A DNA stretch of 63,513 nucleotides, counting the filler, from Thraustochytrium aureum (taxonomy: Eukaryota), in NCBI GenBank assembly GCA_012862495.1. It is 5 parts of 4 records of this genome, joined end to end, with 100 filler letters (N's around TTAATTAATTAA, not from the genome) between each part and the next. Parts side by side here need not be neighbours in the genome. Positions count along the whole stretch, not along the records: positions 59,106 to 63,513 come from BLSG01000315.1; 4 more parts are not named here. The stretch is one strand, 5' to 3'. The translations under genes were made by a program, and so were the position numbers. The first letter of the stretch is position 1, and each line of letters begins with the position of its first letter. Below the pieces are notes generated by a model. It did no database searches, was not told where the DNA came from, and worked only from the letters and a program-made list of their open reading frames with translations. This document shows, in pieces, positions 5,993 through 63,513 of the stretch.

Positions 5993-8900
5993 CTACCGGC
6001 ATAGCTCTGGGAAGGCGGCTTTGAACGCTGCTGTGTTGGCCTCCTTCTCCTCACCCGTCATCTCGCACCACAGTTTGGCTCCATACGAGAGCAAGAGCGA
6101 CTCAAGACGAGCTCGCGCGGGGTCGTCTTTGGGGCGCTCGTACACTATCGATAGCGCCGTTTTGCCCTCTGTCGAGGTCGAGCCGCGCGGCGAGGCCATG
6201 TTCACGTTGGCCCCATGTTCCAGCAAGACCTCCATGCAGTCCACGTAGCCGTTTTGCGTCGCAACGTGCAGCGAACACGTTCCAAACGGGACGTTGACCG
6301 GATTGTCCACTTCGGCGCCGCAATCGATGAGGAGCTTGACCGTGCTCGCATGACCCGCGACGCAAGCAGCAGCAAGAGCGCACACGCCAAGTTGGACGCG
6401 TTCATTGACGAGCTCCTTGGCAGAGACCACGTTGCCTTGCGAGGCGCTGGCGAGCAGCTGCCGCACATAAGCATTCCGCCCCTGAATCGCAGCAATGACC
6501 AAAGCGTCGACCGTCTTGGCCCCGGCTCTGATGAGCGCGGCAGCCACCTTGTTGAACCCGCAGGTCGACGCCATCAACAAAACCGAGTCCCTCTCGTTGC
6601 TCTTGGCGGTCGCAAGCATGCCCTTGCTCAAAAGAAACTCGACGGCCTCGACGCTGTTTTGCTCGACGGCAAACACGAGGCACGTACACCCCCTCCGCGA
6701 GGTGGCTGTCTTGTATGTTTCGTGGTGGCAGTCTAGCTCGACCAAAACCTGCAGCATCTCCATATCGTTGCGCGCTGCAGCCCACATCGTCGGAGTCATA
6801 TTGGTCGAGCCTTGCGCGAAGAGCTGCTGTGGGTCTGCTTCCAAAATCGCTATGACACCTTCCACATCTCCAGCTTTCACCTTCGCGATGATCTCTGGCT
6901 CGCGGTCCAGCCTTTCCCCCAGAATGTCCTTGTCGCCTTGGGTTTCAAGCAAGATGCGGTGGCACTCCAGGTTGTTTCGGCAAGTCGCCAAGTTGGCCGC
7001 GTCCCACGACAAGTGGTTGAGCTTCCGCGTGAGCGTCAAGGTCGCCTCCCTGTCGACCTGCGAGAGCAGCGCGCGCACATAGTTCGTGCGATTGTGCTCC
7101 GCCGCATGGTGCAAGCAAGTGTTGAAGTTCACGTCGGCGAGAAAGAGCATGTCGCTTGATGCCAGCTCACCATAGCACTTGTTTATCGTCTCGCGCAGCG
7201 AGAGAAACGCGACAAGGACTGCGGCGTTGCCAGCGGCCGCGACCGCCAGCCAAATGCCCTTGAGCGCCTTGAATGTCGCCATGCCAGCGTGGTTGTGCGC
7301 GAATAGGCCTCGAACGGCACTGTGCACGAGCGCCTCGCTGTGGCGCTCGTGCAGAAAGTCGCAGACGGCGAGGACACGTCGTGCCACCAAGGGTNNNNNN
7401 NNNNNNNNNNNNNNNNNNNNNNNNNNNNNNNNNNNNNNNNNNNNNNNNNNNNNNNNNNNNNNNNNNNNNNNNNNNNNNNNNNNNNNNNNNNNNNNNNNNN
7501 NNNNNNNNNNNNNNNNNNNNNNNNNNNNNNNNNNNNNNNNNNNNNNNNNNNNNNNNNNNNNNNNNNNNNNNNNNNNNNNNNNNNNNNNNNNNNNNNNNNN
7601 NNNNNNNNNNNNNNNNNNNNNNNNNNNNNNACTTGGCGTTCGAAGGCCACATCAGATACTGGCCCGCTGCGCGATCGTTCTGCGTTTCCATCACTTGACA
7701 GTTGCGCAACAGCCTGGAGTTGATCTGTGATGCGCTCCGCTGCGAGATGCTCCTGCAAAGTGAGGTGAGCAAACATGACAGTCGCTCAAGACCACCCCGC
7801 GCACAATCATCTCGCTTGACCTCGCGCTGCACGAAGAGAGGAACGTGGTCGCGACCGATACTTCTCTGCAACGCGTTGCAGACGTCGACGGCGCGGAGCG
7901 TCGACCGCGCTGGCGATTCAGCCGAGCCGCGAGCCCCGACCAGGCCTGGGCAAGCCTCTGCGGCGGCCGGTTCCTGCCACTCCAGCAGGACTGCTGCAAA
8001 GTCTTCGAGTGTGATGTCTCGAACGTTTTTGCAGTGCGTGTGAAGAGCGACGCGGCGCAAGAGCTCGAGCGCGACCTCGTCTTCCAGGAGGTCAAAGTCC
8101 CGCTCGATGATTTTGTCCTCCTTGCCTGCTCGCCGCCGGTACTTTGTGGCGTCGCCACGTCGAAGCATTTGCTCAATTGCGATGGCGAAGAGCCGCGACC
8201 GCGAGAGCGCTGCAGTCCCCGCGCCGGCCGCGGGCTCTGCGCCTGGAGCTACCAAGTCAGGAGACGCCCGTGCACTTTTCGGGGCAGCCCGCAGCGCAAC
8301 CAGGCCCTGGCAGCTTGAGGTTGCCCCCTCGCGGCCCTCTGGCATCCGGTCTCGGGCTGCGCGGTCGTCCTCGTCTCGAAGCGACGACAGAACATGAATG
8401 AGTAAGCTGAGCATCATCGGATTCTGCGCCAGCTCTGCGTATTCTGGTTGCTCCAGCTGCGCCTCCAAATAAGCAGCGCGATCTGCACCGCGCTCAAATG
8501 CGGACGTTGAACTCCGCCAACGCGAGGATCGCTGTTTGACTCGACGGCGAATGATTTTCCTAATCATCTCCTGGGTCAGCGGCTTGACCTTCGCGGTGGC
8601 AAATCCACTCGACTTGAGTGCTTCAATGTGCGCCGAGATGCTCGTTTCGCGAGAGGTCAGGATAACGCGCTGGGAGAGGTTGCGGCGAAGGAAGGACACG
8701 AGCCATCCCATGATTACGCCTCCCGCCGACCCGCTCTCATCAAACCCATCCAGGAGGAGGAGTATCCTGCCCGAGGCCAACGCTCTCTTTAGAAACTCTG
8801 TCTTTTGCGAGAGCGCACCAAACTTTTCCGTCAAGTAGACCCCGAGCAAGTCGTCGCCCGCCTCGAGTCGGAGCCGAGTAATGTGCCGGCCCATGTCGAT

Positions 8901-11900
8901 AAGCAGCACACGAAGAGGAACGAGGCAGTCGTGTGCTTTGAGGTTCTGCTCAAGAGCGCCGTACACGAGCGCCTTCCTCAAGAGCACGCTCTTGCCCGAG
9001 GCTGGGGCGCCAAGGATAACAATGCGCCGTTGTTCCACGAGGTTTGCCTCGGGCGGCAGCAGACTGTTTAGGCTGTTCAAATACGCGCTCGCCGTGCGGT
9101 CCTCCGCCCTTGCCAGCCGCTGGACCTCGGCGTCCAGTGCGGCGTGCTCGAGCATGTTGAGCTTGTCGCCGGCGTCGTCTGAGGTGCCCCGCTCGATTGC
9201 GTTGGCAACCAGCCGCTCAACCAAGACGTGGCAAAGGTCATCTTTGAAAGCAAATCCTGCCTGTGGCGCGCCGCTGCGGAGTCCGAGAAAAGCTGACATA
9301 AACTCGCCAACGTCTGTCGGAAGCAGCCCGAGTTCCGTGGCAGCCTCACGAAACCGGATCACAGCCTGGGCCTGCGAGCCTCTGATCCCGTCGGGGACCT
9401 GCGCTCCATGCCGAAGAAGTCTCTCGACGTCGGCATTGGAGAGCGTTCGAAGCTCCACCAATGCATCTTCGAGGCTCTGCTGTGCCAACGCGAGCCGCTC
9501 TTTGAGGTCTCCGAACCCCGGTGCCATAGTGGCCGACTTGCAATTTCTCTGGCCTCTGTTTCCGGTGTCCTGCTCTGCAATATCCAGGTTGACGCACTGG
9601 TGCAGCACGGACAGCTTGCGACGCGAGACGGGGTCCACAAAGTGACCGTCTTTGGCGCCAACCGCGGTAAAGTACTTGACGCGCTCCCTCGAGTACGCCA
9701 GTGCGCCCAATTCGATTGCGTCTTGCAATTCGCTGCCTGGCACAGACACCTGATGCACGGACAGGCATTTGATGCCAATCCTGCGAGCGACATCAGGGCT
9801 GATCATCTCTACGACCCGCGCAGCATGCCCCAAAGCAGACGCAAGGGCGAGCCGACGTTGGGCGGCGCATAGCTCGCGAAAGGACAGCGTTTTTACAGCA
9901 TGGTACAGGCGCCCAGAGTGCAGGCCCAGCGAATTGGGCTCGTCCTGAAGGTACGCCGGGGCGTGCTGGCGTATCATGCATATCGCGCTCCACGCCTGCT
10001 CGATGAATTGCGCGCCTGGTTTGCTAAAGTCGACTCCTAGCGAAGCGAGCGGCGGCGGCGGCCCGAGTTCGCCTGCCACGAGGGCTTGGAGGAGCTTGAT
10101 AAAGTCCGCTTCGCAGGCACCTTCGACACCAGAGGCACCAAGTCGCGTGTACTCGAACAGGATGGTATTCTCGAGCTTGGCAACGTCGTGCGCAACAGGG
10201 CCGGGACCAGAGAACGCAAAGTCGATTAGCCACACGATGCCCTCGCTGTCGATGAGAATGTTGCAGCCATTCAGATCGCCATGGACGTGCCCCATGAGAC
10301 GCAACCGGTCCCTGCGCTTGCCCTCGGCCTGCACTTCACCGTATTCTAGTTGGGCGTGCTCGTCGAGAACAGCCTTGACCTCCTTGAAGAATGTTCGCAC
10401 GTCCATCTTTCTTGCACCAGTCCACTCCTCCACCAGCTGGACGGACAGCGGGCCTTCCAGCAGCAGAGCGAGCGCATCATCAGGTTTCGGCGAGAATACG
10501 TGCTTGTCAAGCTGACGGGACACCTCGAAACCGCCAGGCGCGAATATGCTCTTTTCCTCGACGAACCTCGCCTCCGTGGCGCCGCGCAAAAGAATTGAGC
10601 CAAACACCTCGTTGAGCACGGCATTGGTCTCCCCGGCAGGGGCAACATCGCTCTGGCCTGGGTTGCTCGAAAGACTTCGCGAGCTGGCACTAGGCCCGCT
10701 AAAAAAGTGGGGCGAGCTGCTTCGCTCGCCCGCTGGGCCAATCCAGGAGGCAGGACCGCCGAGCGACTCACCTCAGCTTCGTAGAGGTCTTTGAAAGTGC
10801 TGATCGAGTCATTGACATGGTTCTTGAGCGTCGGGAGGCACCACGTTGCTCCGCACAACTCGATGCGCAGCGCAGCCATTCCTTCGTGCTCTGCGATGGC
10901 TAGGACCTTGGGAGAGTTCTCGCCGAGCAGCGGGGCCATGGCTCGCATCCGTTCGTACTCGTCTCTCAAAAAGGCCACCTCGTCAACCTTGACAACGCAA
11001 GGGACCTCCACGGTGCCGTCGTACAAAGTCGACCCACATCGAAAAACCCTGGCCGAGCTAAACCCGCCGCTGAGAGTCTCGACCTTGATTTTGCAGGCAG
11101 AGGGAAACACGGCTTGCAGGAGCACCCTAAGCGGCTCGGACAAGGCGTTGCCGGCCACCCCAACAAACATGCAGGCGCGCAGCCGCGCACGGACGACCTC
11201 GATCATTTCCCGTCCAATTTCGCCGGTCGCAGGAAAGCCTGCGAGAACCTTGGCGCTCGCTTCGGGCGAGAAGCCCCACCGGAAGACAAGCGAGTCTCGA
11301 AGGTCTTCGAGGTCGAGCGCTCCCTTCGCCGAGGCCTCGAGGTCAAATATGTCGGCGGGCTGATTGCGCGGTGCAGCTCCAAGAGCCGCGTTTGGTTGCT
11401 CGACACTGTCGCGCCGCGTCTCGACACGCGCCCCCTCCAGCTCTGTCTTGGCGCAGTTGTCCCGCCAGACCCAGCAACGCTTGCGGAATTCCCCGTTGCT
11501 GGTTTCAACTCGAAACGAATTGATTGGCATGTGCAGCTTGCGCACAACTGCATCGGGCAGCACGACTTTAATTTCGTTTGTCTGCGAGTCTGGAGGGAGG
11601 AACCTGATCTCATCCACAGGCAAGGGCTTTCCCGTACCGACGCCAATCTCTGTCGCGTCCTTTGACTCCTCTTCCTCCTCCGGGCCAATTGGAGACGAGT
11701 GCTGGCCAACCACATTTGCCTCCCTTTGTGGTGCCTGGCGACGTGCAGACGCCGCGTTGTTGGCTTGAATTGCACTTTCGGCTCGTCGGTCTCCCTGGTG
11801 GTTGGAGATATCCCCTGCCATGTCACTCGACACATGTGCGCGCTCGGCGAGGAACTCGCTTACTGGTGGAAGGTTGATGCACAGCTCCCGGACTGCAGCC

Positions 11901-12232
11901 TGCCTCCAGTCCGTCTCACCTGGAGCGAGCTCCACGGAGAGAGTCATGCGATAGTTGAGGCGCAACGTCCCGTCCTCCTGGATCTCCGTCGCGAGCACAA
12001 GAATTCGTTCTCCGCTCGCCTCCCCGCATATTCTCAGGTGAACCGCGCGGTTCACGGCGCTTGCAAGCTCCTTGGCCTTGCTGAGCTGCAGCCGGCGTGC
12101 CGAAAGTGGCCTGTCTGCTGGAGTTTTGCGCTCGATCGCAGTGATTTGCCCCACGCGCCTCTGTTTTGGAGACAGAGCCGCGGCTGCGTCCTCGAGCGTC
12201 TTGTCTGTCGCGCGCGCGTCTCTGTCGTCCAT
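5993..12232 (-). CDS. Large NLR-like protein: APH/TCAD9-like kinase fold + NACHT + ankyrin repeats (one intron, frameshifts near 7790 and 7375, N gap)
   Basis: LSGGFSSARVF...PCVVKVD...E, HGDLNGCNILID...LIDFA...DVAKLE (kinase fold). ILGAPASGKS, LLLLDGFDE, RVILTSR, NPMMLSL, FAHLTLQEHLAA, WWHDV (NACHT). Multiple ankyrin repeats (TCLHHAAEHN, TPTMWAAARN, SLHVATQNGYVDCMEVLLEHGANVN). Confidence 0.85.
10653..10771 (-). other. Predicted 119-nt GT-AG intron in the kinase-NACHT-ankyrin gene
   Basis: Minus-strand GAG|GTGAGT donor at 10771 and CAG| acceptor at 10653 join ORF 10346..12232 in frame to ORF 7167..10619 (FKDLYEAE|SDVAPAGETNAVLNEVFG). Confidence 0.6.
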
Positions 12233-13088
12233 CGCGTTTGATCTGCTTCTGGGCTGCCCACTCCGCGCAAAGCACGCAGTGGCGGCCCGGCAACTTGGGC
12301 CTCCAGCGCGCGAGACAGTCGCTATCCTGTCGGCGCTATGTGGCGCACTGCAGACTGGCGGAGCCTAGCCGTAAACCACCAGCTCGAAGCGCCGTCGCTC
12401 GAGCGTCAGCGCTCTGGAGCTAGAGACAGGTTGACGAGCTCTAGCTAGAGCTTCCGTTGCGGTCTGCCGGACTTGCCACGCGGAAGGCACGGCCCTGGAA
12501 GAACAACGAGGTCAGATGGTAGATGACACGCGCACGTTCCCTGGAAGGCGTAGAGTAGGTTCGCCATGGATGTCGCGCCCAAGCTAGCTAGCTAGAGTAT
12601 GCCCATGAGGGTGAGTGAAGCAGCGTCGGAGCGCTCAAAAAAAAGCTATCCTTGCCTACCGGATCTCTTTTTGCGACACCATAAAAAAGGAATCCTTGCG
12701 CAGTGTCCCTTGCTTGTTGAGGGCAACGATCGGTCGAGGGACGGGCGGCGAGCTGCTGAGCAGCGTGCAGGGCCGTCTCGCGTGCTGCTGCTGCTGCTGC
12801 TTGCGACCGTCTCGGCTGTGAGATTGGCGGCGTTGCGCTCGAATCAAATCGCTTCACGCAGCCGCGGCCCATGAAAAGTCACGCTCAGCTCGGCGCTCGG
12901 GTCGGCACTTTGTTCGGTGGTTTGTTTGGCTTCAATGGCTTGCTCGAGCCTGAACTGCTTTCAAAAGAGGCATGGGTGGCCGCGTGCAGGCAAGATGGCA
13001 CAGATAATGAGCTTTGGATACCGGCGTTGGGCGGAATCAAAAACAAACGCAGATGCAAATGCACAAATGCTCTTTCTGTTGTGGTCGC

Positions 13089-21401: not shown

Positions 21402-21748
21402 CGTGGGGCCTCCACCGTCGTCCCGCCCGAGGCAGGCCAGTCGCGTCGTCTGATTGTTGCGAGATCGGCGTGGCCGCCAGCCTCCGCGCAGACCGCAGCG
21501 AAGTCAAGCGCGGAGCAAAGCGCCTCGCCTGTCGCAGCGCAGCCGCAGCTAGTCTCCGCACAGCGCTGCCGCGGCCTGGCGTTTCTCCAGCGCGCGCCAG
21601 AGAGTCCGGCGCGCGGGCCGGGATGGGGTGGCCTATCTCGTCGTTTCGTGCTCTGACGAATGAACGTCGTGTTCCAGTCGTCAATCAAGGGAGTAGAAGA
21701 CTAANNNNNNNNNNNNNNNNNNNNNNNNNNNNNNNNNNNNNNNNNNNN

Positions 21749-21760
21749 TTAATTAATTAA
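21749..21760. other. Artificial scaffold linker TTAATTAATTAA flanked by 44 N on each side
   Basis: Six-frame stop linker; the same motif recurs at 50139, 57332 and 59050. Confidence 0.95.
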
Positions 21761-21804
21761 NNNNNNNNNNNNNNNNNNNNNNNNNNNNNNNNNNNNNNNN
21801 NNNN

Positions 21805-45453: not shown

Positions 45454-47035
45454 CTAGAGGCTAGCGAGGGTGCGAACGACGCGGCGGCGAAAGCTAGTGT
45501 ATGCCGGGAATCGAGCATCCTGGAAGGCGCGCATCGGCGCCATCTGGTCCGCCCAGGCGCTCTTCTGCAAGACGGCCTTCTCGTGCGAAAACGTCTTGAA
45601 GGAATACTCGCGATGGTAGTTGCCTTGCCCAGAGTTGCCGACACCGCCGAACGGCAGGTTGCCGTTGATCACGTGCATGGAGGCGTCGTTGATGCAGAGC
45701 CCTCCTGAAGTTGTGCGGAACTTTAGAGCCTTGATGAAGACCGGGTCGCTCGAGAAGCCATACGCGCCAAGCGGCTTGCCAGTCGGGAGGCCCCGGACGT
45801 GGTCAATCGCGTCGGTCAACTTGGAGTAGCGCACCATGGGCAGAAGCGGTCCGAAGAGCTCGTCCTCCATCGCGCGCGAGGTGCGAAACGCCTCCCAGTC
45901 GGACCCGAAATCAAAAAACTGTTGGCGCGATATATTTGTCCGCCTCATCGTGGTCGCCGCCGTGCACGATATACTGGCGGTCCGCCTCTACAATGTCGGC
46001 GAGGCGCGCGTATGCGCCCTCGTTGATGAGGCGGCCGTAGAACTCTGAATTCTGCGGGTCGATTCCGTACATCTTGACGATCTGCTTCTTGAGCTCGGCA
46101 ACGAATTTGTCGGCGACCGCCTCGTGCACCAGCAGGTGGTCGGCGCGGATACAGAGCTGGCCGCTGTTGTTGAAGGCAGAAAAGGAGATGCGCTTGGCCG
46201 CAAGTTGAATATCCGCCGTCTTGTCAATGATGCAGGGCGACTTGCCGCCGAGCTCGAGGACGACCGGGGTGAGGTGCTCGGCGGCGGCCCGGGCCACGAT
46301 GCGGCCCACGTACGTGCTCCCGGTGTAGAAGATCTTGTCGAAGCGCTCGCGCAGCAGTGCGGTGCTCAGCTCGCGGCCGCCTTCGACGACCTTGATGCAG
46401 TCGTTGTCCAGGTACTTTGGCAAGAGGCGGGCCAAGACGTGGCTGGTTTCGTGCGCGAGCGAGCCGGGCTTTACGAGCACGCAGTTGCCCGAGGCAATGG
46501 CGCCAACAACGGGCACCAGCGTGAGCTGGACCGGGTAGTTCCAGGTCCCCATGACGAAGACGACACCGAGGCTTTCGTAAATGGTCTGGCTCTTGGCAGG
46601 CCAGACCAGCCAGGCGGTTCCCTTCTTTCGCGGCTTCATCAGCTTGTCGAGGTTTTTCAAAAAGTAGTTGACCTCGTCCATGATGAGGGAAAACTCGGTC
46701 ACGAAGCTGTCGAACTTGCTCTTGTGCAAGTCGGCCATAAGAGCGGCTTCCCAGGCTTCGCGCTGCTCGAGCATCATGCGCTTGAATGCCTTGAGCTGCT
46801 TGATCCGCCAGGCCTTGGAGCGCGGCTTGTCAGCATTGTACGCCGCTCGAAGCTCGCGCACAATCCCAGCGGCCTCGCTGGGGTCCACTTCGACGTTGGG
46901 GATCACGCTAAAGCGGCGGTTTTTGTACCTGTCGGCGAGCTTGACTGTGGCCTCCGTTGTCGAGCCGACGGATTCCTGCTCTTCGCTCTGCGGCGAGGGC
47001 TGTGCCAGCGCGGTTTTGCTGGCGTCCTGGTCCAT
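45454..47035 (-). CDS. Aldehyde dehydrogenase, ALDH3 (fatty aldehyde) family; frameshift near 45915
   Basis: GTWNYP, FYTGS..VG, LELGGKSP, NSGQLCIR (catalytic Cys), ELFGPLLP, LPFGGVGNSG.G.YH. Confidence 0.95.
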
Positions 47036-50094: not shown

Positions 50095-50138
50095 NNNNNN
50101 NNNNNNNNNNNNNNNNNNNNNNNNNNNNNNNNNNNNNN

Positions 50139-50150
50139 TTAATTAATTAA
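50139..50150. other. Artificial scaffold linker
   Basis: TTAATTAATTAA between N runs. Confidence 0.95.
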
Positions 50151-50382
50151 NNNNNNNNNNNNNNNNNNNNNNNNNNNNNNNNNNNNNNNNNNNNAGAAAG
50201 GACACTTGGCCACAAACACCCAGCCAGAGAGCCAGGCAGCGACCAGGCAGCGAGCCAGGCAGGTTTGCAGGTTTGCAGGCGAGCGGAGGCGCGCGGTGGA
50301 CGCGGACAGAAGTGCACGCGCGTTGCACGGCGGCTGCTTGCTTGGGTCCTGAAGGCGTGACGGAAGGAAGGCGACGGCAAAG

Positions 50383-52916
50383 ATGGCCTACCGCGGTGCA
50401 CGCAGCGGCGTCGTGAATGACTTGGTGATGCTCGACCAGCTGAGCGAGCAGGCCGTGCTGGAAGCGCTGGGGAGGAGGCACGCCGCGGACGAGATCTACA
50501 CCTACATCGGCGAGACGCTCATCTCGGTCAACCCGTACAAGTCTGTGAGCGGGCTCTACGGGACCTCGCAGATGAAAAAGTACATCTCGAAGAAGGACTA
50601 CCAGAACGCGCCGCACGCGTACGCCACCGCGGAGCGCGCGTACCGCAACATGCAGCTGCAGACCTCGAACGAGTGCATCGTGATCACAGGCGAGTCCGGC
50701 TCGGGCAAGACCGAAGCCTCCAAGGTGTGCATGAACTACATCGCCTTTCTTGCCTCAAAGTCCAAGCACGTGCAGCGCGTCAAGGAGCAGCTGCTCGAGA
50801 CCAACCCGCTGCTCGAGGCGTTCGGGAACGCCAAGACCCGCCGCAACGACAACTCGAGCCGGTTCGGCAAGTACTTTGAGATCCTCTTCAAGTTCAACGA
50901 CCCGGAAGGCGGCCGCATCAGCCAGTTCCTGCTGGAAAAGAACCGCGTCACCGCGCAGCAGCAGGGCGAGCGCAACTTTCACATCTTCTACCAGATGCTG
51001 ACCGACTCGCGCCTCTGCCGCGAACTGGGCCTCTCGGGCGGCCACAGCTCGTTCCGCTACTTTAGCGATCCCTCCGCCGCCTCGGTGCGCACCTTGGACG
51101 ACGGCCGGGATTTCAGCGAGACGACGCGCGCCATGGACTGGGTGGGCATCCGCGACCAGGACCAGGTCGCCATCTTTGCCATCCTGGCCGGCATCCTGCA
51201 CCTCGGCAACGTCGAGTTTCAGGCCGCGGGCCGCGACAAGAGCACAGTGAGCAACCAAGCCGCCCTGCGCCAGGCCGCCGACTTGCTCGGCGTGCAGGAG
51301 CGCGACCTCGGCATCGCGCTCACGCACCGCACGGTCAAGAGCGGGATCGAGAGCGTGCGCACCGGCCTCAGCGTCGAGAAGGCTGCCTTCGCGCGCGACT
51401 CGCTGGCCAAGAGCCTCTACGGCAAGGTGTTCGAGTGGATCGTGGCCCGCGCCAACGAGACCATCCACTGCGAGCAGTTCTCCACCTCGATCGGCGTGCT
51501 CGACATCTACGGCTTTGAGATCCTCGGGGTCAACGGGTTTGAGCAGCTCTGCATCAACCACACCAACGAGCGCCTGCACCAGCTCTTCATCGAGCTCACT
51601 CTGCGCCGCGAGCAGGAGGAGTACCAGAAGGAGGGCATCGCCTGGTCCAAGATCGACTTTATGGACAACCTGCCCATCTGCACCATGATCGAGCGCCGCG
51701 GCGGTGTGTACAGCCTCATCGACGAGGAGTCCATCTTCCCGCAGGGCTCGGACGCCTCGCTCATGAAAAAGCTCGCCAGCAACATGCGCGACCGCTACTT
51801 TGAGCCCTCGCGCCAGAGCCCGTCCCAGTTCGTCATCAAGCACTACGCCGGCGCCGTGACGTACGACACCAACGGCATGCTCGACAGCAACAAGGACACG
51901 CTCTTCTCGGACCTCGTCCTCGTCAGCAACACGAGCCGCAACCCGATCGTGGGCCAGGTCTTCCGCGACCACCCCGCCGCGGAGACGGGCCGCAAGACCA
52001 ACAAGCGCCCGCCCACCACCTGCATGCAGTACAAGAAGCAGGTGTTTGACCTCATGGAGACCCTCAAGAGCTGCAACCAGCACTACATCCGCTGCATCAA
52101 GCCCAACGACCAAAAGCGCAGCGGCATTTTCCAGAACGACCTCTCCCTCGAGCAGGTCCGCTACCTCGGGCTCTTGGAGAACGTCAAGGTGCGCCGCGCC
52201 GGCTACGCGTTCCGCATGGAGTTTACCGAGTTTATGTCAAAGTACAAGGTCACGCTCAAGGGCCACCCCGAGTTCGAGCCCGACGCCAAGCGCGGCGTGC
52301 AGCGCATCCTCCAGAACGCCGGCGCGCGCGACTTTGAGCTCGGTCGCACCAAAGTCTTCATCAAGGACGCCAAGACCATCCTCGGCATCGAGGACGCGCG
52401 CAAGGCCTTCCTTGACCAGGCCTCGGCCTTTCTGCCCGAGGACGACGGCCTCATCTACGCCGACAAGTGCCTCAGCTTCGACTCGCGGTTCGTGCGCAAC
52501 AGCCACTTTTTCGCGTCGGCGGCAAGGGGTTTTACTGGTTTTCGCAGACGGGCGTGCTCGAGCACTTTGTGTCGATGGCGAACATCGAGCTCCTCGCGTA
52601 CAACGACCGCGAGGGCTGGATGGTGACTTGCAGCAGCTACGACGCGCAGCCCACCAAGCAGGACCCCAATCCGCCGCGCGTGCAGCTCAGCTACCTCAGC
52701 TCCAACATTTATGGGTCGGAGATTGCAAACTTTTGCGAGATCCTCAAGACCAACATGAACTACGACATCCAGGTCTCGACCTCGAGCACCATTCCCATGA
52801 ACGCCCAAGACCCGCAGCGGTACAAGGAGGACCTCAAGAGCATTGCCAAGGGCGCGCTCGGTCTGCCGATGATTCAGAACACGCCGCCCGCCAAGGGCTG
52901 CTGCACTATTTCGTAG
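50383..52916 (+). CDS. Class I-like myosin with short TH1/PH-like tail and C-terminal CaaX; frameshift in a T run near 52507
   Basis: GESGSGKT, LEAFGNAKT.RNDNSSRFGKY, DIYGFE, HYIRCIKPND, VRYLGLLENVKVRRAGYA, GRTKVFIK; tail ends KGCCTIS*. Confidence 0.92.
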
Positions 52917-57287: not shown

Positions 57288-57331
57288 NNNNNNNNNNNNN
57301 NNNNNNNNNNNNNNNNNNNNNNNNNNNNNNN

Positions 57332-57343
57332 TTAATTAATTAA
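57332..57343. other. Artificial scaffold linker
   Basis: TTAATTAATTAA between N runs. Confidence 0.95.
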
Positions 57344-57819
57344 NNNNNNNNNNNNNNNNNNNNNNNNNNNNNNNNNNNNNNNNNNNNGAGGCGGCTGCCG
57401 CTGCGGCGGGCCTGGATTTCAGCGTGCCAGCCGATCAGCAAGTGTACGCAAGCAGAGCCGACTTCGCCTGCGCCACCTCGGCTGTGGAGCAGAGCGGGCC
57501 CCACATTGCCGATGATTCGAACTGGCTCGAGCAGCTCCTTGAGTGGCATGACGAGACTGGGCTCGAGGCTGTCCCGTAGGAGAACCGCCCCCCGCCCCAG
57601 CGTTGGTTGGCCGGGTGACCCGGCCCGATCGTGCCCTGTTGATTTGTTGAGGATTTTCTTCCAAAGCGATTTTCATGAATGCAATTTTGATGGAGAGGCA
57701 CGTCTCGGCGAGCACAAAAACAAGAGAAACTTGTCTTCCTTGGCTTTTTGCTTTCCTAGTTCATTTCCCGTTGGCGGGAGCGGGCGCGGGTGGCCTCCGG
57801 TGCGCCTGTGCGCTCCCGC

Positions 57820-59005
57820 TCAGTGGCCTTCGTTGATGTCCAGGTCAGTGAGCAAGTGCGAGACGAAATCCTGCAATTGAGGGTCGTCCACCTCTTGAGC
57901 CGGGTCGCTGTCGTCCTCCACCCTAGTCCGAATCCCGTGCGAAGCGGGGTTGCCCAGCGCAGACACCGACCGCTGGCTTTCGCCGCTCAAGTTGACGCCG
58001 CCAAAGGACGAGAACGCGCCGCTCCCAAACATAAGCGGTGGAGAGCACGAGTCGGGCCGCATGGACGGCGAGAGCGACGACACGGACGTGTTGGCCGAAG
58101 GGCCCATAAGAAACGGCGAGATTGCACCGAAGCGAGGAGGCATGGGGCCAGGGGCGCGGCTCTGCGGCGCGGGAGTAGCCGCTCCGCTGATCGAGGACGC
58201 ACCCGACGATCCGTAGAACTGCGACGAAGAGGCCATGCTGACTGAGCTGGAGTTGCTCATCCGGCTCGGCAGCCCGCTGCTCCCAGCAACGAGGTCGCTG
58301 ATCACACTCTCCGGGGACGGATTCTCCTCGTTGCGCTGCTTTTGCAGCTGCTTGATCGCCTCACTGATGAAGGGGCACTCGCGCGCCACGTGGCCGACCT
58401 TGCCGCACTGAAAGCACTTGCGGCCGTACGGGCAGTTCTTCAAGCGGTGCCCTGGCTCGGAGCAGTTCAAGCAAATGTTCCGCTTCTTCTCTCCACCCTC
58501 GGCGTCACCAGCCAGGGGCGGTTCCGCGCCCTCGGCCGACTCGTGGATTTCGCTCACACCAGAGCCGACAGTCCCGGGCGTGGTCGGCGACGCGCCACGC
58601 GAGGTGACCTGCTCTGGCGTCGCGGCGCGCCCCTGCGCGCGCGCGTCGGCCTGGGCCGCCTCGTCGGCGGCGTTTGCCAGCTCGTGGGCGGTCTCCTTTG
58701 CTAGGGCGGAAAACTTGCACTGCTTGGCCACGTGCGTGGTGAGCCCGCAGAGGAAGCAGGCTCGGGGCTGCACACAATCGCGCGAGAGGTGGCCGACCTT
58801 GTCGCAGTTGAAGCAGCGCATGTCGTCGGGGTTTTCGACGGGGGCGCCGCCCTCGGCGTCCTCGCCGTTGGTGCTCGGGCTCTTCTTCTTCTTCTTCTTC
58901 TTTCGCTTCTTCTTCTTGTCCTTGTCGTCCGCCGACTCTGAGCCCGCAACGCTCCCAAGCTGCTGCTGCTGCTGCTGCGGCGGCGTTGGGGTTCGACGCG
59001 GCGGC
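57820..59005 (-). CDS. CCHC zinc-knuckle nucleic-acid-binding protein (5' truncated)
   Basis: Four CX2CX4HX4C knuckles (CFNCDKVGHLSRDC, CFLCGLTTHVAKQC, CLNCSEPGHRLKNC, CFQCGKVGHVAREC), a poly-Lys stretch and a Ser-rich tail. Confidence 0.85.
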
Positions 59006-59049
59006 NNNNNNNNNNNNNNNNNNNNNNNNNNNNNNNNNNNNNNNNNNNN

Positions 59050-59061
59050 TTAATTAATTAA
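59050..59061. other. Artificial scaffold linker
   Basis: TTAATTAATTAA between N runs. Confidence 0.95.
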
Positions 59062-59252
59062 NNNNNNNNNNNNNNNNNNNNNNNNNNNNNNNNNNNNNNN
59101 NNNNNCGCCATCGCGCCCTCGCCTCCCTCGCTCTGCTTGACTCGCCTGCTCGCGCGCTCGCTCTGCTATGCTGCTGTTCCGCTGTTGCTGCTCTGCCAGT
59201 GGTTCACACAAAGTTCCAGTCTGCTCATGGTGGCAGTGGGCAGTGACCTTTT

Positions 59253-59744
59253 TTGAAAGGCGAGGCCGAGACAGTCTGGATAGCGCGGGTCGTGATTGTG
59301 CCAACGGGGTTGGAGCTGGAGCTGGAGCGGGCGGGGGCGCGCCAGAACGCCGACCGTCCTCATTGCGATAGGGGCAGCGGCCACGATAGTGGTTGTGGCG
59401 ACAAGGACCATGACAGTGACAACGATGGCAAGAGGAGCGTCGGTGACTGTGACGGGAGTAGCAGCAGCAACAGCGGCGACAACACGCCCACACAAAGCAG
59501 CGAGCCGACACCGGAAGCCCAAGAGACCCTGAAGAAGGGCAAGAAACGCGTTTCGGCACCAGAATCTACCCAAGAGCAAACCGACAAGAAGCGCGTTCGG
59601 GCCCCCAACGCGGCGCGGCCCAAGCTTGGCCTCGACTCTGGCAGGATCCAAAAGGAGCTAGCGCGAATCCGCGCGTACTACACAGAAGTAGACTGCTCCC
59701 CCCTCATCAAGGTTAGAGTCGGCAGCGACTCTGAGCAAAAATGA
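59253..59744 (+). CDS. Small hydrophilic protein with a sororin-like C-terminal motif (start uncertain)
   Basis: Disordered basic/acidic body ending KELARIRAYYTEVDCSPLI, similar to the RAYFxEID..EL type sororin C-terminus. Confidence 0.4.
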   Translation: MKGEAETVWIARVVIVPTGLELELERAGARQNADRPHCDRGSGHDSGCGDKDHDSDNDGKRSVGDCDGSSSSNSGDNTPTQSSEPTPEAQETLKKGKKRVSAPESTQEQTDKKRVRAPNAARPKLGLDSGRIQKELARIRAYYTEVDCSPLIKVRVGSDSEQK

Positions 59745-59857
59745 GACTGGCAGCCTCTAGAGTTTGAATCGATTGTGCGACGCCAGCAATTGAGGCTGGC
59801 ATCACAACACTCGCGCGTCTCTCGACCAGGTGCCTACCGATAATCGCAGTCCAAAAA

Positions 59858-60352
59858 CTAATCCATTTGAGTATTTACGTTCTTGATTCCAAGCGTGTGG
59901 TCGAGGAAGCTCGCGCGCGAGGCGCTGGCCACGACGAGGTAGGGCAGCGCGACGACGGGCACGGCGAAGAGTGAAGCCAGTGCGAAGCGGAAGGTGAAGT
60001 CGTCTGAGTCGCTCGGTCGGATCATCTCCGCCAGGCAGGTGAGCGTGAACACAATGAGCAGCACGCGCGTGGCTGTCGCAGCGAGCGCGACCGGGGAGCC
60101 GTTCGTGCAGGCGTTGTCGGTGCTGAGCGGCACGGGCGCGATCGGCACGAACTCGGCGAGTCCGAAGAAGCCCGTAAGCATGGCCACCACGACCCAGGAC
60201 CACTGTGGCGCCGCGTAGCTCACGGCCAGCAGCAAGAGCAGCAGCACGAGGAAGGAGTGGTCGAAGAGGGTCATCAGCAGCGGGTAACCGTACCAGAAAG
60301 CCGAGAGGCCCTCCACCCACCGCGGGCGCGCCTGTGGGCCGGTCGCGTCCAT
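59858..60352 (-). CDS. Small multi-pass membrane protein, possibly viral
   Basis: 164 aa, about 4 hydrophobic segments, 29-bp spacer to the upstream gene. Confidence 0.55.
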   Translation of the reverse strand: MDATGPQARPRWVEGLSAFWYGYPLLMTLFDHSFLVLLLLLLAVSYAAPQWSWVVVAMLTGFFGLAEFVPIAPVPLSTDNACTNGSPVALAATATRVLLIVFTLTCLAEMIRPSDSDDFTFRFALASLFAVPVVALPYLVVASASRASFLDHTLGIKNVNTQMD

Positions 60353-60381
60353 GTCTCTGGCCAGGGCCTAGATTTTTCCCG

Positions 60382-61074
60382 CTAGAACTTGGCGGGGCCC
60401 TCGCTCGGCATCGCGTCGTAAAAGCCCACGTTCTTGTCCACCGCCCAGGCGGGGTGCAGTCGCGGGAACACGTCTTGCTGCACGCCGTATAGGTCCATGA
60501 CGTGCGTGCGGTCGCTCGTGGCGATTGGGCGGTCGATCGTCGCCCACTCGCGCTCGGGGTTGCGGAAGAGCGTCAGGTCGGGGTCCGCGTGCGCGTAGGG
60601 CATCTCGTCGGCCACGCCGTGCCTGGCCCACCCCTCCTGTGCGTAGTGATTCATCATCTGCGCGAGCCCGGGCAGCTCGTCGGCCACCTCTCGCGCGGCG
60701 CCCTCCAGCAGGCGCGCGATGATCTGCTCGTGCGTCTCCTGCTCCACCATGACGTTTCGCGTCGCCGGTTCGACGCCGTAGAAGGCGGCCATCTCGGGCT
60801 CCTCGTAGACCCCGTAATTGGGCATCTGGAACTGCTGGTCGGGCCCCTGGTTTACGGCGAAGCGGCGCTGCAGCACCTCCATGAACCTCTCGCGCATCTC
60901 GGGGCTGTAAGCCAGCTGGCCGCCGCCGAAGCGGCCCGCGAGGATGTCCAAGCCGCGTCTGATCACCTCTGGCTTGAAGATCTCATCCTGCAGGAGGGCG
61001 TCGCCGCGGACGACGCGGTAGTAGAGTGACTGGTTGTCCTGGCCGGCGTCTGCGTGGAAGCGCGGGTGTGCCAT
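60382..61074 (-). CDS. Hypothetical protein weakly resembling NCLDV minor capsid P8/DUF5761
   Basis: Intact 230-aa ORF; L...IF..E.I, QII..LL......V..EL.....Y and IDRPIATS recall the P8 pattern (judged by eye). Confidence 0.4.
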   Translation of the reverse strand: MAHPRFHADAGQDNQSLYYRVVRGDALLQDEIFKPEVIRRGLDILAGRFGGGQLAYSPEMRERFMEVLQRRFAVNQGPDQQFQMPNYGVYEEPEMAAFYGVEPATRNVMVEQETHEQIIARLLEGAAREVADELPGLAQMMNHYAQEGWARHGVADEMPYAHADPDLTLFRNPEREWATIDRPIATSDRTHVMDLYGVQQDVFPRLHPAWAVDKNVGFYDAMPSEGPAKF

Positions 61075-61140
61075 GCTCGCCCTGCACTCGTGCGAGACAA
61101 AAAATCACACGCCAGCGATCATGGGTGCGCGTGCGTTTCG

Positions 61141-63461
61141 CTAGCACACGACCATGGGCTTGCGTTCCCCAGCGGAGACGTGGTCGGACACGTCGAGGTG
61201 GAACACCTCGAGCGAGAGCAGCAGCTGCCGGNNNNNNNNNNNNNNNNNNNNNNNNNNNNNNNNNNNNNNNNNNNNNNNNNNNNNNNNNNNNNNNNNNNNN
61301 NNNNNNNNNNNNNNACCGAGCGCAGGACGACGCCGCCGATGGCGCGCACGGTGAGGTTCAGCCTGCGCAGTCGCGGGATGGGCTTGGAGAGAAGGCGAGC
61401 GCCGAGGGGAAGCTCTGTCGCGTGGTGCGGGCCGTGGCGAGGTCCCCGAGGCCGCGCTGCGGGAAGACCGCCTCCCAGGGGCTGCTCTCCGGTATCCATC
61501 GATGTAGAGGTAGATTGCGCGCGGGGAGACCCTCGTGGCCTCCAGGTCGACCGAGTCGTCGACCAGGCCGCCCTCCATCTGTGTGTTGGCCGCGCGGAGG
61601 CGAAGGACGCGCACGCCGCCCGCCTGGTCCGCGCCGACAAGCGGCACAGAGCCGATGGCGACCGTGCCGCCGTCGGCGGAGAGCGACACGGAGAAGCCCA
61701 CCTCGTCGCCTATTCTGTCGCCGCCAATGCTGGAGTCCCGTTGGGTCCAGAGCCCCTCCCAGGCCCCATTCGCGAAGCGCACGATGCGGGCGCTGCCCCT
61801 CCCGCTCTCCGCCTGGGGCGAGCCGGCGGCGAGCGTCTGGCCGTCGCCGGACAGCGCGACCGACCAGCCGAACTTCTCGGAGCCTTCTTCGCCAAAGATG
61901 GTGGCGCCCTTCTGCACCCACGAGCCAGAATCGAGGAGGAAGACGCGCACGCGGCCGTAGTCTTGCAGTGTGGCGCCCTTGCTCCAGGGGGCGCCCGCGG
62001 CCACCGTCTCGCCGTCCGCGGATAGCGAGACCGACGAGCCGAGTCGGTCCCCGCCCTCCTCGCCATCCACGTCGGCCCCAAGCTGGGTCCAGGTGCCCGC
62101 CAGCAGCCGAAACACGCGGACCCTCCCTGCCTGGAAGGCTCCCAGGAGGCTGAAGGGCGACCCTACTGCGACGGTTTCGCCATCGGCCGCGAGGGCCACC
62201 GACCAGCCGGCGCCGTCCCAGAGGGCCTGGCCCTCGATCTTGGCGCCGAGCTGGACCCAGGAGTTCGAAACGAGGCGAAACACGCGCACGTGGCCCTCGC
62301 CCGAGGAAAACAGGCTGTCGCTGTCTGGCGAACCGATCGCGACCGTGTTGCCGTCTGCCGAGAGCGAGACGGAAAACCCCTGTTTCGTCGCCGGAGCTCG
62401 AGCCCTCCGATGGTGGCGCCAAGTTGCTCCCAGTCGCCGGAGACGAGTCGGTAGACGCGCGTGCTGCCCATGCCGGGGTCGGTGCTGTCGTTGTAGGGCG
62501 CGCCGACCGCGATGGTGTTTCCGTCTGCAGAAAGCGCGACCGAGAACCCGAACAGGTCGTTGTCGGTCGCGCCCGAGGTCCCGAACGAGCCGTCGTCGGC
62601 CCCCGTGATCACGGAGCCGAGCTGGTCCCACTGGCCGGCGACGAGTCGGTGCACCCGCACGATGCTCAGAGGGGCGCTGCCCTGGCCAGCGAAAGGCGAG
62701 CCGATTGCCACGGTGTTTCCGTCTGCAGAGAGGGCTGCCGGGCGGCCGTCTTGGCCCCAACTCTCCACGCTGGTGCTGATCTGGTCGCCCAGCGCCTGCC
62801 ACACTTGGTCGGTGCCACCAGCGGGCACACTGAGGCTCGACGTACGGGACGAGAGGTTGAGTCGCTTCGCGAGCAAGGGGTCAATGAGCTGGGTCTCGAC
62901 GCGGAAACTGTACCTGGGCTCGGTCTCGGGTAGGTTGCCCTCGCCGTCGGCGAGGAAGATGGCGTAGGTGTCTGTGCTGGAGAGAAACATGAAGCTGAAG
63001 GTGACGTCCGTCACGCCCGGGTGGTTCGTCTGGAGCGCGAGCGTGAGCATCTCCGCGATGTCCTGGACGAGCGCGCCCGCGTAGCGTAGTCGCTTGCGGC
63101 GCGTGGGGACCTTCCGCGGCTCGCCCTGGATCAGCGAGCTCGCGAAGCGCACGCGCCTTGGGGCCCTGTGCGGCAGCGAATCGTCTATCTGGAGCTGGTC
63201 GGTGCGCAGCGTGGTCTCCCAGCCCGTGTCGAGGTTGCGCAGCGTGACCACGAAGGGGCTCGTGACCACGGAGGCCGCGGGGAGCGAGAAGGACTGGAGC
63301 TCCACGCCGACCACGTTCTCGACGAAGTGCGGCATCTCCAGAGTGGCGCGGATCGTGTCTTGGCCGAAGCGCACGTCCGACATGGCCTTCTCGGCGTGGA
63401 AGAGGCTGCTCTGGAGGAAGGGCCTGGCCGAGTCTGTCACGGCGTGCCCGAAGCTCGGCAT
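61141..63461 (-). CDS. Penton/minor-capsid-like single jelly-roll protein with inserted FG-GAP-type beta-propeller; frameshifts near 62390 and 61485, N gap
   Basis: N-terminal LEMPHFVENVVGVELQSFSLP and C-terminal IYLYIDGY...PIPRLRRLNLTVRAIGG...LLLSLEVF match NCLDV/Polinton-type penton-like motifs. About 7 repeats of (F/G)GxSV(A/S)LSADGxT(V/I)A(I/V)G(A/S)P...VRV(F/Y)RL...WxQLG lie between them. Confidence 0.65.
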
Positions 63462-63480
63462 GTTGGGTCTGCCGAGGGGC

Positions 63481-63500
63481 GAGAGAAAAGTTTTTCTCTC
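63481..63500. promoter_or_regulatory. Inverted repeat GAGAGAAAA-GT-TTTTCTCTC just upstream of the penton-like ATG
   Basis: Perfect 9-bp arms directly visible; function inferred only. Confidence 0.35.
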
Positions 63501-63513
63501 GGTCGCAGGAGAG

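What the first reader, a model, noticed from the sequence alone, without database searches (positions are those of the whole stretch)
59858..63513. Probable endogenous giant-virus (or Polinton-like) virion gene block next to a host-like gene
Seen: after an AT-richer spacer (about 59745-59890) come three compact co-oriented ORFs with 29- and 66-bp spacers and a GC-richer look. Two carry motifs I associate with Nucleocytoviricota structural proteins (penton/DUF5901-like and P8/DUF5761-like). They share a scaffold with a eukaryote-like gene, which suggests an integration junction near 59800. Inference: edge of an endogenous viral element, possibly from an undescribed high-GC lineage.
Basis: inference. 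Interest (0 to 1): 0.8.

Follow-up and report, generated by a model that had tools for sequence, protein, structure and literature searches.

The report
Skiavirus capsid genes beside host gene
Three tightly packed genes that likely encode shell proteins of a recently described group of large protist viruses (skiaviruses) are joined to a gene that looks like the protist's own, which would make this a piece of such a virus lodged in a host chromosome rather than a free viral genome.

Summary
The three minus-strand ORFs and their 29- and 66-bp spacers are real. The window is five scaffolds joined by artificial linkers, so only about 750 bp of host-type DNA shares their scaffold.

ORF2 (230 aa) has 34 relatives at 42-59% identity. 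One lies on a 67-kb contig that encodes a nucleocytovirus major capsid protein and that a 2026 preprint names as carrying skiavirus genes. ORF2's predicted fold best matches a PBCV-1 capsid chain, likely P8 (Z 7.6, moderate). ORF3 carries a seven-bladed FG-GAP propeller inside a penton-like frame; the penton call is weak. ORF1 is a predicted four-helix membrane protein.

In an independent public run, two sequence versions both tile across the junction, so it is not a chimera. That run shows no break at ORF3's frameshifts, and variants in the three ORFs are mostly silent (pN/pS about 0.3). The neighbouring ORF has host codon usage and a Sororin-like tail.

Best reading: a skiavirus-type virion gene block integrated in a protist chromosome (about 0.6). 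Main rival: an episomal virus carrying captured host DNA (about 0.3). Polinton-like origin is not supported.

The parts
59006..59105 (.). Artificial scaffold linker (N44-TTAATTAATTAA-N44); left limit of the scaffold that holds the finding
   Evidence: four such linkers in the window
59106..59228 (+). GC-rich low-complexity upstream region of host type, with no A/T tract
   Evidence: 13-16-nt matches to host scaffolds (43904, 52975, 2917); other contigs of runs X1 and X3 match it and run on unlike
59229..59744 (+). Host-like ORF, candidate divergent Sororin-like protein. Open frame 59247-59744; the nearest ATG (59229) is out of frame at a T6 run (59249-59254). Disordered middle, K/R cluster, C-terminal YYTEVDCS
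   Evidence: GC3 0.72, codon score -0.11 per codon, like host genes; motif compared by eye with PMC11148194; no Pfam or PDB hit
59745..59857 (.). 113-bp convergent intergenic spacer; the candidate host-virus junction
   Evidence: GC 0.54; tiled by two contig versions in run X3, no loose end or joint
59858..60352 (-). ORF1, 164 aa, about four predicted transmembrane helices; likely virion inner-membrane protein; no relative found
   Evidence: hydropathy and 9 silent / 8 replacement variants; no hit
60353..60381 (-). 29-bp spacer with an A5 tract upstream of ORF1 (likely viral promoter element)
60382..61074 (-). ORF2, 230 aa, conserved skiavirus-type protein, likely homologue of PBCV-1 minor capsid protein P8
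   Evidence: 34 relatives; 14 metagenome loci and 1 viral locus; top structural match 8h2i_bR, Z 7.6, rmsd 3.1, 89 aligned
61075..61140 (-). 66-bp spacer with a T6 tract upstream of ORF2
61141..63461 (-). ORF3, about 745 codons: penton-like (predicted single jelly roll) N- and C-terminal parts around an inserted propeller; four single-base breaks and an N gap in this assembly
61645..62751 (-). Seven FG-GAP repeats (predicted seven-bladed beta-propeller) inside ORF3, spacing 171, 171, 168, 171, 170, 198 nt
   Evidence: PF14312 E 1.1e-9 and 2.6e-6; repeat family D1; seven motif copies
63462..63513 (-). Upstream of ORF3, A5 tract; the window ends here, so the extent of the element is unknown
   Evidence: contigs of X1 and X3 run 65 and 46 letters past the end

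Best explanation
The three ORFs are a virion-gene block of a nucleocytovirus, likely of the skiavirus (SmDNAV-related) group, joined to host-type DNA and likely integrated in the chromosome of a protist. SHOWN: ORF2 belongs to a family whose members sit among nucleocytovirus genes; the junction exists in an independent run; the ORFs carry mostly silent variation. INFERRED: ORF2 is a P8-type glue protein under the capsid shell at the five-fold arrays. ORF3 is the vertex (penton) protein with an outward seven-bladed propeller that would serve in attachment. ORF1 sits in the inner membrane. Each gene is likely driven by a short A/T-tract viral promoter read by host RNA polymerase, since skiaviruses encode none. 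A virus that depends on the nucleus and persists in its host would have ready access to chromosomes. One insertion behind a Sororin-like host gene, older than the 2-3% divergence between the versions seen today, would explain the shared junction. The coding sequences have been kept under selection since, as in a maintained provirus or a co-opted block.
For: Viral origin: 34 relatives of ORF2 at 42-59% identity, some on 135-220-kb contigs. L001's 67-kb contig has Capsid_NCLDV at E 8.8e-40, with 0 of 14 control genomes ringing, plus a UL9-like helicase, YqaJ, PCNA, WLM and S8 peptidase. An A22 resolvase neighbours the homologue in L005, L010 and L014. MCP, A22, WLM, the UL9-like helicase and YqaJ are listed as skiavirus core genes, and this contig is named as holding skiavirus gene hits, in 10.64898/2026.07.28.741200. 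No relative was found in 185,579 prokaryote genomes by one pattern. Fold: best of 48,161 chains is a PBCV-1 capsid chain, aligned over 44-137, matching P8's central region 33-137; BFVD lists P8 proteins at ranks 2, 9 and 18, none significant. Junction: in X3, contig pairs cover 59560-59690, 59664-59820 and 59795-59963 with no loose end or joint. Host character of the left part: codon score negative like 14 of 15 host genes, while all 4 viral segments are positive, two barely; an A5/T5 tract lies upstream of 3 of 3 viral ORFs, 1 of 12 host genes, and not the host-like ORF. Selection: 23 silent / 18 replacement among 41 listed variants, no stop, pN/pS 0.29, p 9e-5; one of the 18 was scored in a wrong frame and is silent. 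X3 shows compensating indels at all four ORF3 breaks and closes the N gap; the host myosin-I gene is also frameshifted in this assembly.
Against: No unambiguous host gene is on the scaffold. The host-like ORF has no database hit, lacks an in-frame ATG here, and shows 3 silent / 12 replacement variants (pN/pS 1.39). Purifying selection and coexisting 97-99% identical versions are also what a free virus population would show. All long-read skiavirus genomes in the preprint are circular episomes, and they exchange genes with the host. Z 7.6 is within the range that tool calls common for unrelated helical models. The ORF3 penton link is weak: 3.5 bits, reached by 2 of 2000 shuffles, hhalign probability 3%, to a family that itself has no Pfam or PDB annotation. 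In the ORF2 tree the window's protein falls in no well-supported clade and is not sister to the L001 protein, so 'skiavirus' rests on family membership only. The host is shown to be a eukaryote with an intron-less class I myosin; 'thraustochytrid' is inferred from the viruses' reported host range.
Confidence: 0.6

Rival explanations
1. The whole 4.4-kb scaffold is part of a free or episomal skiavirus genome co-sequenced with its persistently infected host. The host-like ORF and its upstream DNA are a piece of host DNA captured by the virus, and the sequence versions are coexisting virus strains.
For: Episomal skiavirus genomes turn up in draft thraustochytrid assemblies and swap genes with the nucleus (10.64898/2026.07.28.741200). 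pN/pS near 0.3 in the viral ORFs and 1.39 in the host-like ORF fit a replicating virus carrying neutral cargo. No proven host gene is on the scaffold.
Against: The cargo would include a host-type upstream region without the viral A/T tract and unchanged host codon usage. It is shared by both versions in X3 and is also held by X1 and X4. Two versions recur in each of X1, X3 and X4, as alleles of a nuclear locus would.
Confidence: 0.29
2. The block is nucleocytoviral and integrated, but comes from a relative outside Skiavirales (another branch near Mamonoviridae/'Manesviridae' or an unsampled lineage), and the host need not be a thraustochytrid. This overlaps the best reading in everything but the lineage.
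For: The ORF2 family spans loci of 26-60% GC and reaches divergent members at 26-31% identity. A medusavirus protein has the highest query TM-score (0.32) among the 50 BFVD rows, though at E 1.3. The window's protein is unplaced in the tree. The preprint did not accept the L001 contig as a resolved skiavirus genome.
Against: The one long annotated neighbour contig carries the skiavirus core set, and identity to its ORF2 homologue is 49%.
Confidence: 0.2
3. The join is an assembly artefact between a host contig and a viral contig.
For: The assembly is fragmented, gap-rich and carries indel errors.
Against: There is no N between 59106 and 61231, and two independent contig versions in X3 tile the junction.
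Confidence: 0.04
4. The block is a Polinton-like virus or ordinary host genes.
For: Compact gene packing; FG-GAP propellers are common in cellular proteins (known).
Against: ORF2 relatives lie on 45-220-kb contigs and beside a Capsid_NCLDV gene; no terminal repeat was found at the junction.
Confidence: 0.04

Closest known systems
Skiavirales / 'Ariadnavirales' (SmDNAV and relatives; bioRxiv 10.64898/2026.07.28.741200 and 10.64898/2026.08.29.747986; PMC8354545)
   Same: ORF2's family occurs on a contig named there as carrying skiavirus genes; compact genes; found inside a protist assembly.
   Different: The described genomes are virion-derived or circular episomes of 190-252 kb (SmDNAV GC 50.3%). 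Here the genes are 65-69% GC and joined to host-type DNA. Neither main text mentions a penton (0 hits), and I saw no P8 in the parts read (one names a P4 homologue); their supplements were not seen.
Giant endogenous viral elements (Chlamydomonas punuivirus, Ectocarpus phaeoviruses, Acanthamoeba insertions; search listings and a passage)
   Same: Nucleocytovirus genes contiguous with host-type DNA, possibly kept functional.
   Different: Different virus order and host; only 3.7 kb is visible; no integrase, terminal repeat or second flank seen.
PBCV-1 minor capsid protein P8 (PMC6344570; Pfam P8_CR)
   Same: Helical wedge of about 90-105 residues; top structural match, with a coinciding residue range.
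   Different: 8% sequence identity, no Pfam match, and an extra conserved C-terminal region of about 80 residues.
PBCV-1 penton P1 and its variant P1v1 (PMC9617893)
   Same: Predicted jelly roll split by a large insertion, as in P1v1.
   Different: The insertion here includes a seven-bladed FG-GAP propeller; the jelly roll itself was not demonstrated.
AurliV-2, chromosomal mirusvirus integrant of Aurantiochytrium limacinum (abstract in listing, PMC12606086)
   Same: Large DNA virus integrated in a heterotrophic protist chromosome.
   Different: Mirusvirus (Duplodnaviria), not a nucleocytovirus.

Membership tests
Nucleocytoviricota | Double jelly-roll major capsid protein in the same genome | tested here: inconclusive
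   Not in the window's 3.7 kb; present on the contig of an ORF2 relative at E 8.8e-40
Nucleocytoviricota | Genes belong to families whose members lie in nucleocytovirus contexts | tested here: met
   ORF2; not shown for ORF1; weak for ORF3
Skiavirales / 'Ariadnavirales' | Monophyly with SmDNAV in an MCP-A32-VLTF3 tree | not testable with these tools
   Markers absent from the window, no whole genome held, SmDNAV sequences not available
Skiavirales / 'Ariadnavirales' | Core genes MCP, A22, WLM, UL9-like helicase, YqaJ around family members | tested here: met
   On relatives' loci only, compared with the list
Skiavirales / 'Ariadnavirales' | No RNA polymerase, mostly no PolB | not testable with these tools
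   Only a fragment is available
Skiavirales / 'Ariadnavirales' | Thraustochytrid host | tested here: inconclusive
   Eukaryote with an intron-less class I myosin; lineage not determined
Giant endogenous viral element | Real physical junction between viral and non-viral DNA | tested here: met
   Two contig versions tile 59560-59963 in X3
Giant endogenous viral element | Flank consists of bona fide host genes | tested here: inconclusive
   Host codon usage and upstream motif; no homologue found
Giant endogenous viral element | Read depth equal to single-copy host genes | not tested
Giant endogenous viral element | Terminal repeats or target-site duplication, second flank | not testable with these tools
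   The other end lies outside the window; nothing telling at the junction
P8 minor capsid protein (P8_CR) | Helical wedge fold | tested here: inconclusive
   Top match 8h2i_bR, Z 7.6, rmsd 3.1, 89 aligned, 1.5 above the next row; the chain's identity as P8 is inferred from its residue range
P8 minor capsid protein (P8_CR) | Pfam PF19065 match | tested here: inconclusive
   No match in 32 + 18 family members or on G001; the family is too distant for the profile or unrelated
Nucleocytovirus penton (single jelly roll; DUF5901-like) | Eight-stranded jelly roll | tested here: inconclusive
   The single-sequence model of the N-part has pLDDT 45.6 and its searches are uninformative; the terminal motifs that suggest it are recalled, not from a call
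Nucleocytovirus penton (single jelly roll; DUF5901-like) | Sequence match to a penton family | tested here: inconclusive
   No DUF5901 hit; weak collinear match to the P0040 family, 327 aa without the propeller versus 326-335 aa
Polinton-like virus | 14-40-kb element with Polinton-type capsid genes | tested here: not met
   Relatives lie on contigs up to 220 kb, one with Capsid_NCLDV
Sororin-like cohesin regulator (host-like ORF) | Short protein, K/R cluster, then C-terminal F/Y-x-x-V/I-D-x-F/Y motif | tested here: inconclusive
   K/R cluster and YYTEVD present, second aromatic residue absent (sequence; PMC11148194); no Pfam hit

The most novel reading that the evidence does not exclude
A skiavirus-type provirus, or a co-opted block of its capsid genes, fixed in a protist chromosome behind a cohesin-regulator-like gene, shared by diverged haplotypes and kept intact by selection, with a penton that displays a seven-bladed integrin-type propeller. 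It would be the first resolved chromosomal junction for this RNA-polymerase-less order and would point to integration as a route to its long-term persistence.
Probability: 0.35. Interest if true: 0.72.

Novelty: new member of a known kind. Interest (0 to 1): 0.5.

Why it matters
How skiaviruses persist for decades in healthy cultures is left open by the preprint that named them, which found only episomal or virion genomes. A real host junction with conserved capsid genes would make integration and vertical inheritance testable by PCR and long reads. The locus also offers candidate identities (P8-like glue protein, propeller-bearing penton) for two unannotated structural gene families of this group. 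If the scaffold is simply episomal, it is one more skiavirus fragment of modest interest.

Tried and rejected
No whole genome is held, so the scaffold's continuation could not be read.

Pfam and NCBIfam gave nothing for ORF1 or ORF2. The DUF5411 hit (E 5.7e-4, 1 of 32 members) is rejected as chance. P8_CR and DUF5901 did not ring on G001. Sequence searches of solved structures with A1, A2 and A3 found nothing meaningful. Foldseek gave no E <= 0.001 match for either model; 8h2i_bR was only rank 28. The ORF3 N-part model was too poor to use, and no penton was listed. The ESM Atlas had no usable hit for ORF2 or the ORF3 N-part.

Single-protein scans of viral contigs with ORF2, the ORF3 N-part, ORF1 and P0040, and a scan with A3, found nothing. 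A search for longer relatives of the ORF3 N-part found 0 of 2460 candidates. ORF1, ORF3 parts and the host-like ORF had no match in the fetched loci. A first C-terminal comparison of ORF3 with P0040 used a wrong frame and was not significant; redone, 32 of 2000 (C-part) and 20 of 2000 (N-part) shuffles reached the score.

Expression: no RNA holder listed. X4 is RNA only by guess and is not used as evidence. X1 and X2 give identical tables and count as one data set, possibly the window's source. X5 and X6 held one short piece each. X1 has no cover at 59730-59856, which proves nothing. Short GC-rich motif counts did not separate host from viral DNA.

Earlier scan notes: four look-ups, nothing. 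Literature: a search for skiavirus/Skiavirales/Ariadnavirales/SmDNAV gave 7 papers, and searches on endogenous elements in thraustochytrids gave 3 and 8; no listing describes an integrated skiavirus. A search on penton with FG-GAP or propeller gave 2 unrelated papers.
Full report
Layout. The window is five scaffolds joined by artificial linkers (N44-TTAATTAATTAA-N44); the finding lies on the last, 59106-63513. The other four carry ordinary, intron-poor eukaryotic genes: myosin, P450, MAK16, VPS36, acyl-CoA and aldehyde dehydrogenases and others. The myosin is class I (best solved relatives myosin IE, Ib, Ic) and has no intron over 2.1 kb. This points to a protist; that plants and red algae lack myosin I is my own knowledge. 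No whole genome is held. Three minus-strand ORFs lie at 59858-60352, 60382-61074 and 61141-63461, with 29- and 66-bp spacers. A plus-strand ORF (59247-59744) converges on them across 113 bp.

ORF2 is viral. It has 34 relatives at 42-59% identity among 448 candidates, none with a Pfam domain; a profile search added 19 representatives. The alignment retrieved 1 viral and 14 metagenome loci (L001 and L002 are the same contig) and none among prokaryote genomes. Their neighbours are typical of large eukaryotic DNA viruses: A22 resolvase, WLM, subtilase, HNH, SWIM-RING, ATG8. The 67-kb contig behind L001 encodes Capsid_NCLDV at E 8.8e-40, a UL9-like helicase, YqaJ and PCNA. Latimer et al. (10.64898/2026.07.28.741200; parts 1-4 of 6 read, plus passages) list most of these as core genes of 'Skiavirales' and name this contig as holding skiavirus gene hits, though not as a resolved genome. 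Yutin et al. [quoted passage not shown] I did not see either preprint's supplements, which may already annotate these families. In a 45-protein tree the window's ORF2 is in no well-supported clade; its nearest row is P0001 at 57%. The skiavirus label is therefore by gene family, not by phylogeny.

What the proteins likely are. The ORF2 model (32 sequences, pLDDT 66.5, core above 90) matches best, of 48,161 chains, chain bR of the PBCV-1 capsid (Z 7.6, rmsd 3.1, 89 residues, chain range 44-137; next row 6.1). PMC6344570 (passages) gives P8's wedge as residues 33-137, so I infer bR is P8. BFVD lists P8-domain proteins at ranks 2, 9 and 18 with E 0.28-1.4. The two results agree, but each is moderate, and Pfam P8_CR does not match. 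ORF3 contains seven FG-GAP repeats. Without them it is 327 residues, the size of a ten-hit family (P0040; nine full-length members of 326-335 aa) whose gene follows an ORF2 homologue in L008. It matches that family's profile collinearly at both ends but weakly (3.5 bits, 2 of 2000 shuffles as high; hhalign 3%). That both look like pentons rests on motifs I recall; no tool named the family. PBCV-1's penton variant P1v1 shows that pentons take large insertions (PMC9617893, passages). ORF1 has about four hydrophobic helices and no relative found. All three ORFs have an A5/T5 tract within 52 nt upstream, against 1 of 12 host genes; 4 of 9 ORF2 homologues have one within 60 nt.

The junction is real. 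Eleven of 18 listed runs hold part of the stretch. X1 and X2 are one data set and may be the source; X3 is another study. In X3 two contig versions, at depths of about 12 and 5, each cover 59560-59690, 59664-59820 and 59795-59963, crossing the host-like ORF's stop and ORF1's stop with no loose end or joint. X3 covers all 30 bins of the scaffold, mostly 1-4% diverged in both parts. X3 shows compensating single-base indels at all four ORF3 breaks and closes the N gap; X4 agrees at the two central breaks and X1 at the one near 61496. The 170-nt repeat spacing in the window, not a multiple of three, points to the same two central breaks. The host myosin-I gene is also frameshifted beside a homopolymer, so the breaks are likely assembly errors rather than decay.

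Selection. The tables showed 40 of 232 variant rows and 40 of 48. I scored the 56 that fall in coding segments, leaving out intergenic rows and one at a break. The viral ORFs gave 23 silent and 18 replacement changes with no stop, pN/pS 0.29, binomial p 9e-5; per gene 9/8, 2/0 and 12/10. One ORF3 site was scored in a wrong frame and is silent, giving 24/17. The two listed indels inside ORF1 and ORF2 are 3 nt. The host-like ORF gave 3/12 (pN/pS 1.39), as a disordered, fast-evolving or dead gene might.

Is the left part host DNA? Its GC3 is 0.72 against 0.87-0.92 for the viral segments, and a leave-one-out codon model scores it like 14 of 15 host genes. Its upstream 123 bp lack the viral tract and share short motifs with host scaffolds. 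The protein is short, with a K/R cluster and a C-terminal YYTEVDCS that resembles the Sororin motif described in PMC11148194 (passages), lacking the second aromatic residue. No database confirms it. So it looks like host DNA, but one unconfirmed gene is a thin flank.

Mechanism and rivals. Skiaviruses lack RNA polymerase and mostly DNA polymerase, depend on the nucleus and persist in cultures. A single old insertion of such a genome behind a host gene explains the shared junction, the host-type left part and the paired versions; selection on the ORFs then implies a maintained provirus or co-opted genes (0.6). The main rival is an episomal virus carrying captured host DNA, with the versions as virus strains (0.29); it explains the selection pattern at least as well, and depth against host genes was not tested. 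A chimeric join (0.04) and a Polinton-like or cellular origin (0.04) are unlikely. Independently of these, the lineage may lie just outside Skiavirales (0.2).

Novelty. Endogenous nucleocytoviruses and skiaviruses are both known. SmDNAV itself is 50.3% GC (PMC8354545, whole text), but a 66%-GC homologue exists in L014. Searches listed no paper that resolves a skiavirus-host junction, and search 116 none on an FG-GAP penton; most listed papers were seen as listings only. I rate it a new member of a known kind, interest 0.5; the integrated-and-maintained reading would deserve about 0.7.

Noticed in passing
window 21705-21804, 50095-50194, 57288-57387, 59006-59105: Four artificial scaffold linkers (N44-TTAATTAATTAA-N44); neighbours across them are not real neighbours.
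   Followed up: yes
window 50383-52916: Intron-less class I myosin, frameshifted near 52510 beside a T run; ends in CCTIS, a possible prenylation signal (recalled).
   Followed up: partly
window 45454-47035 and 7167-12232: Aldehyde dehydrogenase and a TCAD9/NACHT gene each split over two adjacent frames; likely further assembly indels.
   Followed up: no
window 7632-12364 (-): TCAD9 + phosphotransferase + NACHT protein, domains better known from bacterial conflict systems (recalled), beside ankyrin and NPHP3_N genes.
   Followed up: no
window 3016-5781 (+): 921-aa protein with a Hs1pro-1 N-terminal match (E 1.8e-9), a family I know from plants.
   Followed up: no
window 57820-58821 (-): Zinc-knuckle (CCHC) protein on the neighbouring scaffold, not linked to the finding.
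   Followed up: no
L016 600-3528 and L017 4971-6803: On the skiavirus-like contig the major capsid gene appears interrupted near its start, and a P-loop ATPase (likely A32) is split around another ORF; possibly self-splicing introns with homing endonucleases.
   Followed up: no
L001 13984-15924 and 16376-18412: Two long ORFs whose N-termini resemble myristoylated L1/F9-type membrane proteins (recalled motif; no Pfam hit).
   Followed up: no
L013 666-1013; L014 3320-3949: An ATG8 gene and a DUF4116 repeat gene lie directly beside ORF2 homologues.
   Followed up: no
runs X1 and X3: Their longest contigs are 231 and 241 kb, within the size range of skiavirus genomes, while this locus lies in pieces under 1 kb; what those contigs are was not examined.
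   Followed up: no
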